54,632 bases of DNA from assembly GCA_035389045.1 (NCBI GenBank), contig DAOORA010000024.1, forward strand, positions 1 to 54,632, read 5' to 3'. Position numbers: made by a program. Below, piece by piece: positions 33,001 through 36,000 of this stretch (the first letter of the stretch is position 1; every line of letters starts with the position of its first letter). The stretch comes from Bacteroidales bacterium. Its GTDB lineage: Bacteria > Bacteroidota > Bacteroidia > Bacteroidales > CAIWKO01.

Positions 33001-36000
33001 CTTTGTTTGGGCATTTGCCTGACGCCAGATTTTTAAGGTTAGGTCCATAATTTTAGTTTATTTATCAGCCAAAAGCCATCAGCCATCAGCCATTATTTTT
33101 CATATTATTGATTACTGTCCAATTTATTTATTAAAGAGTTAATCATTTTCGATAGTGATGATATTTTATTGAAAATATCTTCACAATTTTCTTTTAAATA
33201 TCCAACTTTATTTGCAATAATTAATTCTGTTTCCAACTCATACAGGGATCCTCTGGCTTGTTTCAAAAATAAAGAATATGATTTCGTTGAATTCCTACCC
33301 CATCCTTCTGTAATATTTATTGGCACTGAACTGGATGCACTTCTTACCTGAGCTGTAATTCTATGACGTTCTTCCACCGGAAAATCCTTACTCAATTTAT
33401 AAATATCAACAGTCAGTTCAATGCCAAGCTGCCATATTTTTAAATCTTTGTACGAATTTATATTTCCCATATTGTTTTTAAGGCTCAAATATATTTTATA
33501 ATGTCTTATTTATCGGTGCTCATGACTATTGGCTATTGGCTATTGGCTATTGGCTATTGGCTATTTATAACTCCTCTGCGATGGTTTTGCAACCTCAAAA
33601 GTAAGTTCTTCCTTGTGCAATTCAGGTTCTGTACCTTCGCCTTTATATTCCCATGCCGACACAAATGTAAAGTTCTCATCATCACGTTTTGCTTCGCCTT
33701 CTTCGGTTTGCATTTCCTCGCGGAAGTGTCCTCCGCATGATTCTCGGCGCTGCAGGGCATCTTTCATGATCAGTTCACCCAGTTCGATAAAATCAGCTAC
33801 CCTGCTTGCTTTTTCGATTTCAGGATTAAAATCATTCAGTTCACCGGGGATGAACAGGTCGTTCCAGAATTCTTTTTTAATTTCGGGTATCATGGCCAGG
33901 CCTGCCTTCAGCCTTTCCTCTGTGCGTCCCATGCCACAGTGCTCCCACATCAGTTTTCCGAATTTCTTATGAATAGAATCAACCGATTGTTTGCCTTTGA
34001 TATTTTTCAGCATTTCGAGCTGCATTTTAATATCATTTTCAGCCTGTACAAATTCAGGGGCATCGGTCGGTATCCTCTTGGTATGTATTTCGGCTGACAA
34101 ATAATTCCCGATGGTATAAGGCAGAATAAAATAGCCGTCGGCGAGGCCCTGCATCAGTGCTGATGCGCCAAGCCGGTTAGCTCCGTGATCGGAGAAATTA
34201 CATTCACCAATGGCATAAAGGCCCGGAACTGTTGTCATCAGGTCATAATCAACCCAGAGTCCACCCATGGTATAATGTATGGCCGGATAGATCATCATAG
34301 GGGTTTCATAAGGGTTTTCATCAATAATCTGTTCGTACATCTGGAAGAGATTACCATAACGCTCTTCGATAACATTTTTTCCAAGCCGTGCTATAGAGTC
34401 TTTGAAATCGAGGTAAACCGCCAGGCCGGTACGGCCAACACCAAAACCGGCATCGCAGCGTTCTTTGGCGGCACGTGATGCCACATCGCGGGGTACGAGG
34501 TTTCCGAAAGCAGGATATCTTCTTTCGAGGTAATAATCACGGTCTTCTTCTGAAATATCGGAAGGTTTTATTTCTTTTTTGCGGAGTTTTTCAGCATCTT
34601 CTTTCTTTTTTGGCACCCATATCCTGCCGTCGTTACGCAAGCTTTCACTCATCAGGGTAAGTTTCGACTGGAAATCCCCGTGCACAGGGATACATGTCGG
34701 GTGTATCTGTGTAAAACAGGGATTGCTGAAGAATGCGCCTTTTTTATAAGCTCTCCATACAGGAGTGGCATTGGATCCCATAGCATTGGTTGACAGGAAA
34801 TAGGTATTGCCATAGCCGCCGGTTGCCAGCACAACGGCATGTCCGAAATATTTTTCTATTTCTCCGGTTACTAAGTTCCTGACAATGATACCGCGTGCTT
34901 TGCCGTCAATAAGGACTATATCAAGCATATCGCGGCGGTTGTAAAGTTTAACGGTGCCTTTTTTTATCTGGCGGCTCAGGGCGCCGTATGCGCCAAGCAA
35001 CAACTGCTGGCCGGTTTGTCCGCGTGCATAAAAAGTACGTGATACCTGGGCGCCGCCAAACGAACGGTTGTCAAGCAATCCGCCATAATCCCGGGCAAAA
35101 GGCACGCCCTGTGCCACACACTGGTCGATGATGGCATTGCTGACTTCGGCAAGACGGTATACATTGGCCTCGCGAGCACGATAATCGCCGCCTTTTATCG
35201 TATCGTAAAACAAACGGTAAACGCTGTCGCCGTCGTTCTGATAATTCTTTGCTGCGTTGATCCCGCCCTGTGCGGCGATACTATGCGCACGACGGGGACT
35301 GTCCTGATAACAAAACACTTTCACATTATATCCCAACTCGCCCAGAGATGCGGCAGCCGAAGCTCCGGCAAGGCCGGTACCCACTATAATAATATCAAGT
35401 TTACGTTTGTTGTTGGGATTGACTAATTTACAGGTTGATTTATAATTTGTCCATTTTTCAGCTAAGGGACCTTCAGGAATTTTTGAGTTTATTTTTGTCA
35501 TAGCTGCCGGGGGATTTAATTTTGATTTTAAAATACTAAGATCTTTATATGTAAAAAATTTATACTAACAAATTTTAACTGTAGAAAAACATGAAATAAA
35601 CCGGGATCAGCGAAAAACCACCTGCGACCACAATGGCATAAATCAAACTGACGGCTTTTATGGCCTGGTTATATTTACTATGATTCAGCCCTAAAGTCTG
35701 ACAACCGGATAGTATGGCGTGATTTAGATGAAAGCCGAGAAAAATAAAAAAGGCAATGTACAAAAATGAATAAACTTTATTCTGAAATAACAGGATCGCC
35801 ATTTGGTAAAAATCATGAGTGTCCATTCCTGCAGGTGGTTGTACTATACCTGCTTTAATGAAAAAGAAATGCATAAAATGAAGGATCAGAAAGATGAAAA
35901 TAATTGCTCCCGTATATATCATATACTTTGAGAAAAACTCAGTATGTGATTTATTGACAACATGATAACGTACAGGACGGGAAGCCCAGTTTTTCAATGT

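What a model noticed while it worked through the whole genome (the two positions that open the first line are those of the whole stretch)
33049..33560. Stem-bracketed small-gene cassettes (four-helix-bundle IVP and GxxExxY genes) inserted inside core operons
Fourteen small, low-GC genes of two families (9 PF05635 '23S rRNA intervening-sequence' four-helix-bundle proteins, kin of DGR Avd; 5 PDDEXK_3 'GxxExxY' proteins) each fill a spacer between two co-directional genes, mostly inside core operons (frdA|frdB here; rnfB|rnfC C32:22044-22636; POR subunits C20:6224-6715; atpC|atpD C64:22135-22723; hdr genes C10:30749-31281 and 34902-35463; C45:9868-10885). Each gene is bracketed by an array of 7-9-nt tandem repeats upstream and the reverse complement of that array downstream, so the arms can pair into a long stem that closes off the gene, as in RNase III-processed intervening sequences of 23S rRNA. 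The repeat unit differs between cassettes but trave [...]
Evidence so far: Call 115: 14 of 14 genes have both neighbours on their own strand (baseline 1734/3157=0.55, call 136; 0.55^14=2e-4); mean GC 0.33 vs 0.41. Call 121: arms printed, e.g. CGCAAAG..CTTTGCG (g00797, g00801), CCAATAG.. (g01628), GGGAGTT..AACTCAA (g02300). Call 125: arm duplex -18 to -60 kcal/mol; in 9 of 14 cassettes 0 of 60 shuffles reach it (z -3.6 to -13). Calls 134,136: among 1031 genes of 50-220 aa the 14 rank 3,4,15,19,26,35,44,88.. by arm pairing (Mann-Whitney p=2e-4). Calls 159,160: whole-cassette folds, C10:30749-31281 -130.7 kcal/mol z -3.5 and C24:33049-33560 -119.2 z -4.7, 0 of 100 dinucleotide shuffles as good; MFE and centroid pair the 5' with the 3' array around the ORF. 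Empty sites [...]
(Added by a program. Inside this text positions count along the whole contig: contig position 1 is position 1 of the stretch shown here. "Call 12" and the like, gene names such as g00115 and contig names such as C1 are that model's own, and its searches are not shown. The text may have been shortened before it was handed on; [...] marks where a part breaks off. The agent that wrote the report below was given it as the finding of a first reader that could run no searches.)

Follow-up and report, generated by a model that had tools for sequence, protein, structure and literature searches.

The report
Small genes bracketed by pairing repeat arms
A tiny four-helix-bundle gene, flanked by two complementary runs of 7-base repeats, sits between two fumarate reductase genes, and the same gene-in-a-stem design surrounds two widespread small gene families in several bacterial phyla, which suggests a compact, probably mobile cassette related to the intervening sequences of ribosomal RNA.

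Summary
Window 33049-33560 is exactly the 512-nt spacer between frdA and frdB on the minus strand. It holds a 127-aa PF05635 gene between a perfect heptamer array (33526-33565) and a complementary array (33064-33093). The RNA fold pairs the two arrays (z -5.1).

The genome has 9 PF05635 and 5 intact GxxExxY genes. All 14 have co-directional neighbours, and their mean GC is 0.33 against 0.41.

New here:
- The design holds across phyla. A cassette's own arms pair better than mismatched arms in 39 plus 20 PF05635 loci and in 78 GxxExxY loci.
- GxxExxY arms are not cassette-specific. They share one motif, CRCWRAG, and the termini TTAACC...GGTTAA.
- Orthologous sites in the genus are filled, empty (20-30 nt) or hold gene-less arm remnants, in patterns that need repeated gain or clean loss.
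- Both genes are under purifying selection.
- The G-rich arm usually comes first.

Not shown: RNA pairing, RNase III cutting, or how the cassettes move. Sense and antisense arms pair equally well, so a role at the DNA level is not excluded.

The closest known thing is the ORF-bearing 23S rRNA intervening sequence; Coxiella's carries tandem heptamers cut by RNase III. I rate this a new variant of a known kind.

The parts
33561..35501 (-). frdA/sdhA-like flavoprotein subunit, the upstream host gene. Its stop codon (33561-33563) lies inside the first repeat of the 5' arm.
   Evidence: PF00890 E 1e-56 and PF02910 E 8e-36; ORF.
33526..33565 (-). 5' arm of the cassette: 5.7 perfect copies of a heptamer (AAUAGCC in the transcript).
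   Evidence: Tandem Repeats Finder, 100% matches, score 80. Pairs with the 3' arm in the MFE and centroid folds.
33105..33488 (-). Cassette gene: 23S_rRNA_IVP / four-helix-bundle protein, 127 aa from a TTG start, with a probable ATG at 33470. GC 0.30.
   Evidence: PF05635 110 bits against a cut-off of 33.8; TIGR02436; PDB 2GSC E 2e-20. dN/dS is 0.12-0.13 against the orthologues in G007 and G008. A 186-nt contig of an RNA library covers 33310-33495 without a difference.
33064..33093 (-). 3' arm: 4.3 copies of a heptamer (AUGGCUG or AUGGCUU in the transcript), complementary to the 5' arm.
   Evidence: Tandem Repeats Finder; inverted pair I1/I2, 29 nt and 79% complementary; fold.
33049..33063 (-). 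Short A/T-rich leader left between the 3' arm and the frdB start codon.
   Evidence: Read directly from the sequence.
32281..33048 (-). frdB/sdhB-like iron-sulfur subunit, the downstream host gene.
   Evidence: PF13085 E 5e-23 plus Fer4 families.
35575..36237 (-). Hydrophobic 220-aa ORF upstream of frdA, the presumed membrane-anchor subunit of the same operon. The assignment rests on position and sequence character only.
   Evidence: ORF; no Pfam family at E <= 0.001.

Best explanation
The frdA|frdB insert belongs to a widespread class of compact cassettes of about 0.45-0.55 kb. Each holds one small gene, either an Avd/S23p-like four-helix bundle (PF05635) or a minimal PD-(D/E)XK nuclease (GxxExxY). 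The gene sits between two arms built of short tandem repeats that are reverse complements of each other.

Proposed working:
- The cassettes settle in transcribed spacers. Here and in most cases these lie between co-directional genes. In other bacteria the same gene family sits in helices of 23S rRNA.
- They mostly lack a promoter of their own and are read through from the host operon.
- In the transcript the arms close into a long stem that loops the gene out. By analogy with rRNA intervening sequences, the host RNase III then cuts the stem, so the cassette is tolerated inside essential operons.
- The cassettes are gained and lost as units, persist vertically for long times with the gene under purifying selection, and decay to gene-less arm hairpins.

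Shown here: the anatomy, its generality, the specificity of arm pairing, the co-orientation, the presence/absence dynamics and the selection on the genes. Inferred: co-transcription, pairing in RNA, RNase III cutting, and any role of the encoded protein in movement.
For: Anatomy and fold at this site.

Generality of PF05635.
- The family is found in 67 of 81 genomes of the window's phylum, with up to 19 matches per genome.
- The 30 loci taken from 30 genomes show arms by eye.
- Own-arm duplex is -36.4 against -22.9 kcal/mol for mismatched arms (n = 39, Wilcoxon p 1e-9). In 28 of 39, at most 1 of 12 mismatched partners pairs as well.
- In 20 loci from Nostoc, Coleofasciculus, Anaerolineales and Syntrophobacteraceae genomes, own arms give -49.2 against -33.4 (p 0.001), with 12 of 20 beaten by at most 1 of 19 mismatched partners.

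Generality of GxxExxY, in 80 loci of many phyla.
- The motif CRCWRAG occurs at 10.5 per kb upstream and its complement at 10.6 per kb downstream, against 0.9 per kb farther out.
- Own arms give -38.1 against -28.1 for mismatched arms (n = 78, p 8e-10).
- Both end motifs are present in 23 of 78 loci, about 60 nt from the start and stop codons, against about 0.03 expected per side.

Orientation and promoters.
- Both neighbours are co-directional in 25 of 30 PF05635 loci and 48 of 70 GxxExxY loci, against a baseline of 0.534.
- A Bacteroidetes-type -7 box (a consensus I recalled) lies upstream in only 3 of 39 and 11 of 74 cassettes.

Dynamics.
- frd site: filled in G000, G007, G008 and G010; 23-30 nt in G002, G009 and G014; 64-126 nt without a gene in 7 genomes. 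Empty G002 is nested in the filled clade.
- DsrE|TusA site: filled in G000, G014 and probably G013; arm remnants of 85-152 nt in 5 genomes; 20-25 nt in 6 genomes. Filled G014 is sister to empty G003 (support 100) inside an otherwise empty clade.
- One site within one genus carries two cassette alleles, 57-60% identical in protein, each with its own matching arms.

Selection: dN/dS is 0.05-0.19 for PF05635 and 0.04-0.12 for GxxExxY.

Precedent and host enzyme: the Coxiella IVS has tandem heptamers with an RNase III cut at the first repeat (PMC4990558 passages). G000 has an RNase III gene.

Weak hint of expression: a contig from an RNA library, identical to the window, lies inside the cassette gene at a depth like that of the frd genes.
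Against: - No raw RNA reads were available, so no transcript ends, no cut sites and no proof of transcription. The RNA library may also contain DNA.
- Arm duplexes are as stable on the antisense as on the sense strand: PF05635 -36.4 against -38.0, GxxExxY -38.1 against -39.4. About 90% of the pairs are Watson-Crick. Nothing therefore singles out RNA over DNA as the level at which pairing matters.
- A sizeable minority lacks specific arms. In 11 of 39 PF05635 and 44 of 78 GxxExxY cassettes, two or more of the 12 mismatched partners pair as well as the own arm.
- C49 and L133 carry direct arrays.
- Cutting a stem inside an mRNA operon would split the frd transcript. Whether that is harmless is unknown.
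- In Coxiella the S23p ORF is reported as probably untranslated and decaying. Here it is conserved, so the analogy is not complete.
- No target-site duplication or defined insertion chemistry was found.
Confidence: 0.5

Rival explanations
1. The arms act on DNA. They would be terminal inverted repeats with several subterminal binding motifs, as at the ends of many transposons, or cruciform or hairpin substrates. The GxxExxY nuclease would be the cutting enzyme of an unrecognised kind of transposon or homing element. The four-helix-bundle cassettes would move with help in trans. RNA pairing would be a by-product.
For: - GxxExxY arms share one motif and conserved termini (TT[AT]ACC[AG]C ... G[CT]GGT[TA]AA) across phyla.
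- The catalytic D, E and K are kept: D67 and K79 are invariant and E77 is at least 90% conserved in 49 sequences.
- The AlphaFold model (pLDDT 94.7) has a PD-(D/E)XK fold. Its nearest solved folds are Cas4, lambda exonuclease and, more weakly, the Hjc junction resolvases.
- There is no sense/antisense asymmetry in pairing.
- In L061 and L082 the gene is inverted relative to its arms.
- Solo arms and a multi-copy MITE-like element carry the same motifs.
- Empty sites are clean.
Against: - No target-site duplication was seen.
- The protein is only about 125 aa, with no separate DNA-binding domain.
- All fold matches are weak (best E 1e-3).
- PF05635 cassettes have no enzyme and have cassette-specific arms, so one trans-acting recogniser cannot serve them all.
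- The gene is absent from 50,697 phage records and present in only 8 of 72,556 plasmid records.
- The strong bias towards co-orientation with host genes needs an extra assumption, namely expression by read-through.
Confidence: 0.25
2. The cassettes are host regulatory devices rather than selfish elements. The stems would be processing or stabilising signals that uncouple the levels of neighbouring cistrons, as REP/BIME hairpins do. The small proteins would be domesticated nucleic-acid-binding factors kept for the host's benefit.
For: - Both genes are under purifying selection.
- The frd cassette has been inherited vertically at one site since before four species diverged.
- Cassettes lie in respiratory and energy operons whose subunits need set ratios.
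- The G-rich arm comes first in 21 of 24 PF05635 and 37 of 51 GxxExxY strongly paired cassettes. This would keep a C-rich stretch from lying unpaired in the transcript. The link to Rho-dependent termination is my own speculation.
Against: - Close relatives run the same operons with 20-30-nt spacers and no cassette.
- Sites differ from genome to genome.
- GC is low, at 0.33 against 0.41.
- GxxExxY proteins are 56-78% identical across phyla, which suggests horizontal spread.
- The gene is lost repeatedly, leaving only the arms.
Confidence: 0.15
3. The association is a coincidence. Slippage-prone repeat arrays are common in the spacers of this genome, and small horizontally acquired genes merely tend to land in the same spacers. 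On this view the complementarity of the arms has no meaning.
For: The genome has 338 arrays of period 6-10, most of them not next to these genes. Of 46 CRCWRAG clusters, 39 have no GxxExxY gene nearby. Some cassettes have weak or direct arrays.
Against: - Own arms pair better than mismatched arms in three independent sets (p 1e-9, 8e-10 and 1e-3). The mismatched arms have the same composition and are repeats too.
- The motif density next to GxxExxY genes is about ten times that farther out.
- The design recurs in at least five phyla.
- The arms differ between two cassette alleles at one site, yet match within each allele.
Confidence: 0.03

Closest known systems
ORF-bearing intervening sequences (IVS) of 23S rRNA (Leptospira, Coxiella burnetii helix 45)
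   Same: - The same gene family (PF05635 / S23p; PDB 2GSC hit).
- Lower GC than the host.
- Inverted ends that form a stem around the ORF.
- Tandem heptamers directly upstream of the ORF, which RNase III cuts at the first repeat in Coxiella (PMC4990558 passages).
- The old proposal that the ORF-bearing IVS is a mobile element is quoted in the same paper.
   Different: - Here the host RNA is an mRNA operon spacer, not an rRNA helix. None of the 40 loci scanned lies in rRNA.
- The ORF is under purifying selection, whereas the Coxiella ORF is reported as decaying and probably untranslated.
- Excision has not been shown here.
Tandem heptamer arrays of intergenic regions (cyanobacterial STRR; Xanthomonas GGGAATC and Nostoc GGGGAYT repeats; TAACTGA repeats)
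   Same: - Arrays of 7-nt units in spacers, mostly between co-directional genes.
- 70-75 inverted array pairs in Xanthomonas (PMC4692102 passages).
- Occurrence in Cyanobacteria and Bacteroidetes (PMC4679880 passages).
- In Nostoc, the downstream arm of locus L189 is made of CCCCAGT units. I recall CCCCAGT as the STRR1 unit.
   Different: The passages I read do not link the arrays to an enclosed gene; '23S' and 'S23' do not occur in either text. Here the paired arrays bracket one of two specific gene families.
REP sequences with their RAYT transposase (REPtrons); this comparison is recalled, not retrieved
   Same: A small gene flanked by inverted copies of a repeat that also occurs many times alone in the same genome. 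This genome also holds genes that look like such transposases, flanked by hairpin repeats (family not tested).
   Different: The enzyme family differs (PD-(D/E)XK or a non-enzymatic helix bundle instead of a Y1 HUH transposase). The arms are tandem arrays, and for PF05635 they are specific to each cassette.
MITEs and insertion sequences
   Same: Terminal inverted repeats, presence/absence polymorphism, gene-less derivatives, and many copies per genome.
   Different: No target-site duplication was found. There is no known transposase family. The placement is strictly between genes, with co-orientation.
Integron gene cassettes
   Same: A promoter-less single ORF with a structured, imperfectly palindromic recombination site, expressed by read-through.
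   Different: The arms lie on both sides of the gene. The cassettes are scattered singly in operons rather than arrayed beside an integrase. No integrase is next to any of the 14 (neighbours).
Avd accessory protein of diversity-generating retroelements
   Same: The same four-helix-bundle superfamily (PMC10053308 passage).
   Different: The neighbours here are frdA and frdB, with no reverse transcriptase or template and variable repeats beside the gene.

Membership tests
PF05635 / TIGR02436 (23S rRNA-intervening sequence protein, four-helix bundle) | Scores above the curated cut-offs of the family models. | tested here: met
   PF05635 110.4 bits (cut-off 33.8) over profile positions 1-106 of 106. 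TIGR02436 107.3 bits (cut-off 24).
PF05635 / TIGR02436 | Related to the solved four-helix-bundle pentamer XCC0516. | tested here: met
   phmmer hit to 2GSC, E 2e-20, query residues 12-123. Oligomeric state was not tested.
23S rRNA intervening sequence (IVS) element | Inserted in a helix of the 23S rRNA gene. | tested here: not met
   It lies between frdA and frdB. No rRNA match in 40 cassette loci. No 23S gene is assembled in G000.
23S rRNA intervening sequence (IVS) element | Complementary ends that form a stem enclosing the insert. | tested here: met
   29-nt arms, 79% complementary. The fold pairs them: z -5.06, 0 of 100 shuffles as good.
23S rRNA intervening sequence (IVS) element | Excised from the precursor RNA by RNase III. 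| not testable with these tools
   Only assembled contigs of RNA libraries were available. An RNase III gene is present at C17:42736-43113.
PF13366 / TIGR04256 (GxxExxY, PD-(D/E)XK superfamily); the second cassette gene family | Family model above the cut-off and a GxxExxY motif. | tested here: met
   Five intact genes score 110-150 bits. TIGR04256 at E 4e-41 and 5e-43. The motif GPGLLESxYE is visible in alignment A2.
PF13366 / TIGR04256 | Catalytic D...E.K of the PD-(D/E)XK fold. | tested here: met
   D67 and K79 are invariant and E77 is at least 90% conserved in 49 sequences. The AlphaFold model has pLDDT 94.7. Its nearest folds are Cas4 4R5Q (E 1e-3) and other PD-(D/E)XK nucleases. Activity was not tested.
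Transposable element with terminal inverted repeats (IS or MITE) | Terminal inverted repeats. | tested here: met
   Arms at both ends. Conserved termini in 23 of 78 GxxExxY loci.
Transposable element with terminal inverted repeats (IS or MITE) | Target-site duplication and a recognised transposase. | tested here: not met
   No duplication is visible when filled and empty alleles are compared. The only gene matches PF05635 or PF13366, neither of which is a known transposase family.
DGR accessory protein (Avd) | Adjacent reverse transcriptase and template and variable repeats. | tested here: not met
   The neighbours are frdA and frdB. The neighbours of the other 13 cassettes are named, and none is a reverse transcriptase.
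Tandem heptamer (STRR-type) arrays | Head-to-tail 7-nt units in an intergenic spacer. | tested here: met
   Tandem Repeats Finder, period 7, at both ends of the cassette. The genome has 338 arrays of period 6-10.

The most novel reading that the evidence does not exclude
PF05635 and GxxExxY genes, with their repeat arms, would form a so far unrecognised class of bacterial mobile element that lives inside transcripts. It would colonise any transcribed spacer, whether in an mRNA operon or an rRNA helix, ride on host transcription, and be cut out of the RNA by RNase III. That would make it a protein-coding 'intervening sequence' of operons. It would also be the source of the enigmatic tandem heptamer arrays (STRRs) of cyanobacteria, Xanthomonas and Bacteroidota. 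The GxxExxY nuclease would recognise the conserved TTAACCRCARAG ends, and the G-first order of the arms would be selected to avoid premature termination.
Probability: 0.3. Interest if true: 0.85.

Novelty: new variant of a known kind. Interest (0 to 1): 0.7.

Why it matters
Two very common bacterial gene families have had no explanation beyond a few cases inside 23S rRNA. They are annotated only as 'four helix bundle protein' and 'GxxExxY protein'. PF05635 is found in 67 of 81 genomes of this phylum, with up to 19 copies each.

Tandem heptamer arrays between genes have been described in cyanobacteria and Xanthomonas without an agreed origin. Tying all three together as one cassette design would:
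- give those genes a genomic context that can be tested;
- offer an origin for many intergenic repeat arrays and hairpins, through the gene-less remnants seen here;
- extend the concept of intervening sequences from rRNA to protein-coding operons;
- point to a minimal PD-(D/E)XK nuclease with a conserved DNA or RNA motif next to it as a candidate sequence- or structure-specific enzyme.

There is also a practical point. These arrays end several contigs, so they break assemblies, and the cassettes split operons in ways that annotation pipelines ignore.

Tried and rejected
- An exact 6-mer search for inverted partners of each array missed even the C24 cassette, because the arms are imperfect. I dropped it.
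- Ranking all small ORFs by arm duplex energy with my crude ORF caller (one search timed out) is noisy. Spurious ORFs in structured or repeated DNA and transposase-like genes with hairpin flanks outrank the cassettes. I used it only for the rank test.
- The search for related loci with the nine-member PF05635 alignment failed because no stretch was conserved enough. I used the genome search instead.
- The joint 33055 to 33562 in RNA run X14 looked like excision of the cassette. It is a contig only about 92% identical to the window, with 24 other letters between the two sides. Those letters match the empty-site spacer of relatives such as G002. It is therefore the empty allele of another organism, not a processed RNA.
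- Parts of the operon without cover in the RNA contigs say nothing.
- The test for strand asymmetry of arm pairing was negative.
- A search for a Bacteroidetes-type -7 box upstream of the cassette genes found few.
- A search for a target-site duplication at two sites was inconclusive.
- A defence-system reading was considered. PADLOC gives nothing for PF05635 and only a marginal Cas4b hit (E 0.006) for GxxExxY.
- The first dN/dS script gave nonsense for PF05635 because of a codon-indexing slip and was corrected.
- Literature searches found no paper that describes these genes as repeat-bracketed cassettes in operons. Subscription papers, including the early Leptospira IVS and cyanobacterial STRR work, are outside the library and were not seen.
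Full report
**1. What is at the coordinates.**
On the minus strand the window encodes three ORFs in a row:
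- a hydrophobic 220-aa ORF (35575-36237);
- a fumarate reductase/succinate dehydrogenase flavoprotein (33561-35501; PF00890 and PF02910);
- the iron-sulfur subunit (32281-33048; PF13085 plus Fer4 families).

They hold one ORF, 33105-33488(-), of 127 aa. It matches PF05635 over the whole profile (E 6e-32), TIGR02436 and the solved four-helix-bundle protein 2GSC (E 2e-20).

Tandem Repeats Finder reports two period-7 arrays at the two ends of the spacer:
- 33526-33565, 5.7 copies, 100% matches, starting inside the frdA stop codon;
- 33064-33093, 4.3 copies, 82% matches.

In the transcript the arrays read (AAUAGCC)n and (AUGGCUG)n. They form 29-nt arms that are 79% complementary. Folding 33049-33575(-) as RNA gives -120.5 kcal/mol, z -5.06, with 0 of 100 dinucleotide shuffles as good. 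The array-array stem appears in both the MFE and the centroid structure. The cassette has GC 0.30, against 0.47 and 0.49 for frdA and frdB.

**2. The genome-wide claim.**
- The genome (4.46 Mb, 135 contigs, GC 0.409) has 9 PF05635 matches. It also has 5 intact PF13366/GxxExxY matches, one pseudogene and one fragment.
- I printed all flanks. Most show 7-10-nt tandem units upstream and their complement downstream.
- The exceptions: C49 has direct arrays on both sides, C45:11889 has none obvious, and C9 and C64 are weak.
- All 14 have both neighbours on their own strand in my own ORF calls, against 1523 of 2851 (0.534) for all ORFs of at least 90 aa.
- Pfam confirms rnfB|rnfC, two 2-oxoacid:ferredoxin oxidoreductase subunits, ATP synthase beta, DsrE|TusA, hdrA-like genes, homoserine dehydrogenase|AOR, fumarase|Dtd and BatD|TPR as hosts.
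- Mean GC of the 14 is 0.330 against 0.411.
- Their arm duplex energies are lower than those of 1595 other small ORFs (median -41.4 against -27.5; Mann-Whitney p 7e-4).

**3. The design is a property of the gene families, not of this genome.**
*PF05635 in the window's phylum.* The family occurs in 67 of 81 genomes, with up to 19 matches per genome. In the 30 loci returned, from 30 genomes, short arrays with many different units hug the gene on both sides.

*A control that keeps composition and repetitiveness.* I paired each cassette's upstream 90 nt with the downstream 90 nt of 12 other cassettes.
- For 39 PF05635 cassettes (30 plus the 9 of G000), the own pair gives -36.4 and the mismatched pairs give -22.9 kcal/mol (Wilcoxon p 1e-9).
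- In 17 of 39 no mismatched partner pairs as well, and in 28 of 39 at most one does.

*Other phyla.* In 20 further loci from Nostoc, Coleofasciculus, Anaerolineales and Syntrophobacteraceae genomes, the own pair gives -49.2 against -33.4 (p 0.001). Twelve of the 20 are beaten by at most 1 of 19 mismatched partners.

*Neighbours.* Both are co-directional in 25 of 30 loci. None of the 40 loci scanned lies in an rRNA gene.

**4. GxxExxY cassettes carry conserved arms.**
Eighty loci were fetched with the GxxExxY alignment. Most carry Bacteroidota titles. Others are Nostoc, Coleofasciculus, Anaerolineales, Methylobacter, Blastocatellia, Ignavibacteria, Chloroherpeton and Syntrophobacteraceae. The proteins are 56-78% identical to the query.
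- Their flanks are not arbitrary repeats. Upstream one reads TTAACCRCARAG followed by two to four more CRCARAG units. Downstream one reads CTYTGYG units ending in ...GYGGTTAA.
- The motif CRCWRAG occurs at 10.5 per kb in the 200 nt upstream. Its complement occurs at 10.6 per kb downstream. Both together occur at 0.9 per kb in the outer flanks.
- Of the 78 loci with full flanks:
  - 41 have at least 2 motifs on both sides in this orientation;
  - 7 have them in the inverse orientation, so 46 have one or the other;
  - 28 have them on one side only;
  - 4 have none.
- Both terminal motifs are present in 23 of 78, about 60 nt from the start and stop codons, where about 0.03 per side is expected.
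- Own arms still pair better than mismatched ones (-38.1 against -28.1, p 8e-10). The mismatched value is higher than for PF05635, as expected for a shared motif.
- Both neighbours are co-directional in 48 of 70.
- The protein keeps the D...E.K triad. It models with pLDDT 94.7 as an alpha-beta PD-(D/E)XK fold. Its nearest solved folds, all weak, are Cas4, lambda exonuclease and the archaeal Hjc resolvases.
- G000 has 46 clusters of at least 3 such motifs, and only 7 lie next to a GxxExxY gene. One motif pair sits inside a 335-bp MITE-like element present at least 7 times.

**5. Gain, loss and decay at orthologous sites.**
*The frdA|frdB site in the genus*.
- The spacer is 441-538 nt with an orthologous PF05635 gene in G000, G007, G008 and G010.
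- It is 23-30 nt in G002, G009 and G014.
- It is 64-126 nt without a gene in seven others, some with heptamer runs or a hairpin.
- On a tree of the flanking genes the four filled genomes lie in one clade. Empty G002 is sister to filled G007 (SH-aLRT 95), and its spacer resembles that of the basal empty G009.

*The DsrE|TusA site* (C10:30749-31281).
- G000 (533 nt) and G014 (512 nt) are filled. G013 is filled as far as its contig goes.
- G001, G016, G008, G002 and G010 keep 85-152 nt with one or both arms but no gene.
- Six genomes have 20-25 nt with a shared AGGAG-containing sequence.
- Filled G014 is sister to empty G003 (support 100) inside an otherwise empty clade.
- The G014 cassette is clearly the same insertion. 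It has the same arm layout, and its gene is 80% identical in DNA against 75% for the upstream flank.

Either the cassette entered the same site more than once, or it moved between lineages, or it was removed cleanly several times.

*One more site.* The thioesterase|thiolase site of another genus carries two cassette alleles whose proteins are 57-60% identical. Each has its own arm unit (AAGAC-type against TAGTAT-type). Own duplexes are -25 to -34, and cross duplexes between the two alleles are -14 to -25.

*Carriers.* The genes are rare on plasmids (8 of 72,556 records) and absent from 50,697 phage records.

**6. The genes are kept.**
- PF05635 orthologues at the frd site have dN/dS of 0.05-0.19.
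- GxxExxY orthologues have 0.04 and 0.12.
- The flanking genes have 0.01-0.05.
- Synonymous divergence of the PF05635 gene between G000 and G007 or G008 (dS 0.57-0.78) is lower than that of frdA and frdB (1.5-2.3). This may reflect A/T-biased codons or later exchange of the cassette. I could not tell which.

**7. RNA or DNA?**
- Only contigs of RNA libraries were available. In metatranscriptome X4, contigs identical to the window cover parts of frdB, frdA and the upstream ORF. One 186-nt contig covers 33310-33495 inside the cassette gene, at similar depth. This is a weak hint of expression and says nothing about ends.
- The apparent 'excision' joint in X14 is the empty allele of a relative.
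- If pairing were selected in the sense RNA, G.U pairs should make the sense duplex stronger than the antisense one. It is not: PF05635 gives -36.4 against -38.0, and GxxExxY gives -38.1 against -39.4. About 90% of the pairs are Watson-Crick.
- Few cassettes have a Bacteroidetes-type -7 box upstream (3 of 39 and 11 of 74). This fits read-through expression. The consensus used is recalled.
- An RNase III gene is present.
- One asymmetry does exist. Among strongly paired cassettes, the G-rich arm is 5' and the C-rich arm is 3' in 21 of 24 PF05635 and 37 of 51 GxxExxY cases (p 3e-4 and 2e-3). This order reads the same on both strands, so it is a property of the element and not of the gene's orientation. 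The C24 cassette is one of the exceptions. A possible reason is that a C-rich arm transcribed first would lie unpaired and invite Rho. That is my own speculation.

**8. Comparison with what is known.**
*The Coxiella IVS paper* (PMC4990558; abstract and passages read).
- It describes a 428-nt IVS in helix 45 of 23S rRNA with an S23p ORF.
- The IVS has lower GC than the genome.
- It has three tandem GACAGAT heptamers just upstream of the ORF, with strain-variable copy number.
- RNase III excises it, with the 5' cut at the first repeat.
- The paper also quotes the older idea that such IVSs are mobile elements whose ORF serves their mobility.

*Heptamer arrays in print* (passages read in each case).
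- Rehm et al. (PMC4692102) describe GGGAATC arrays in Xanthomonas, mostly between co-directional ORFs, including 70-75 inverted pairs.
- The same paper describes GGGGAYT arrays in Nostoc, including one inside the pec operon.
- MacGregor (PMC4679880) describes TAACTGA arrays in Beggiatoaceae, Cyanobacteria and Bacteroidetes.

Neither text contains '23S' or 'S23'.

*Published gene tables.* They show the same placement without comment:
- guanylate kinase | four helix bundle protein | nadD in Flavobacterium columnare (PMC5524665);
- ugd | 23S rRNA-intervening sequence superfamily | wbpP in a Riemerella capsule locus (PMC13688083).

Six full-text searches found no description of these genes as repeat-bracketed cassettes in operons.

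**9. Verdict.**
- Best reading (confidence about 0.5): an IVS-type cassette that lives in transcribed spacers and is tolerated because its arms close it off, probably for RNase III.
- Main rival (about 0.25): the arms work on DNA as the ends of an unrecognised mobile element whose nuclease is GxxExxY.

The two are not exclusive. What is new relative to print is:
- the placement in mRNA operons;
- the shared architecture of two unrelated gene families across phyla;
- the conserved GxxExxY termini;
- the filled, remnant and empty series;
- the order of the arms.

Mechanism of movement, RNA processing and protein function remain open.

Noticed in passing
G000 C23:2380-2964; C36:25220-25699 and 25813-26373 (outside the window): Three ORFs of 159-194 aa have very strong flank pairing (down to -97.8 kcal/mol). 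They are flanked by long hairpin-forming repeats, and their sequences look like IS200-type (RAYT-like) tyrosine transposases. That assignment is recalled from the sequence motif; no family search was run.
   Followed up: no
G000 C42:18560-18900 and copies in C76, C4, C34, C80, C22 (also partial in C37, C25, C9, C2, C78): A non-coding repeat of about 335 bp, 92-97% identical between copies. It has terminal inverted repeats (TGAAGTTTCGCAT...ATGCGAAACTT) and an internal hairpin made of CTTTGTG/CACGAAG units, the same motif family as the GxxExxY arms.
   Followed up: partly
G000 C9:32629-34187 (locus L173): A 433-aa family-4 glycosyltransferase gene is bracketed by inverted heptamer arrays (AGTCGGA x7.9 and TGACTTC x3.9; duplex -27.9). 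Paired arrays are therefore not strictly limited to the two small gene families.
   Followed up: partly
G000 contig ends: C59:1-283, C56:1-143, C31:1-58, C121:1-42, C10:92931-93076, C101:4-484: Long heptamer or octamer arrays (GGGAGTC, CTAACAGC and others, up to 40 copies) sit at contig ends, so these repeats seem to break the assembly. The same units recur at many loci of G000 and of relatives.
   Followed up: no
G000 C22:47330-48160 (locus L040): The GxxExxY cassette is preceded by a partial tandem copy of itself, made of the gene's 3' end (47426-47512) with its own arms. This suggests duplication through the repeat arms.
   Followed up: no
window 29851-31866 (-): This 671-aa ORF consists of two similar halves (a repeat starting TDTLVFWEF.. 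and VDTLVYWNF..). Its C-terminal end looks like a secretion sorting domain (recalled); no family search was run.
   Followed up: no
window 36316-36376: Two copies of a 25-27-nt A/T-rich tandem repeat lie just upstream of the first ORF of the frd operon.
   Followed up: no
frdA|frdB spacer of G018 (locus L017): In another genus of the family the same spacer holds a 586-nt insert with an unrelated ORF that begins like a signal peptide. This suggests the site accepts other inserts too.
   Followed up: no
PF05635 orthologues at the frd site (G000 against G007 and G008): Synonymous divergence of the cassette gene (dS 0.57-0.78) is two to three times lower than that of the flanking frdA and frdB (1.5-2.3). 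The cause could be codon bias or later exchange of the cassette between lineages; this is unresolved.
   Followed up: partly
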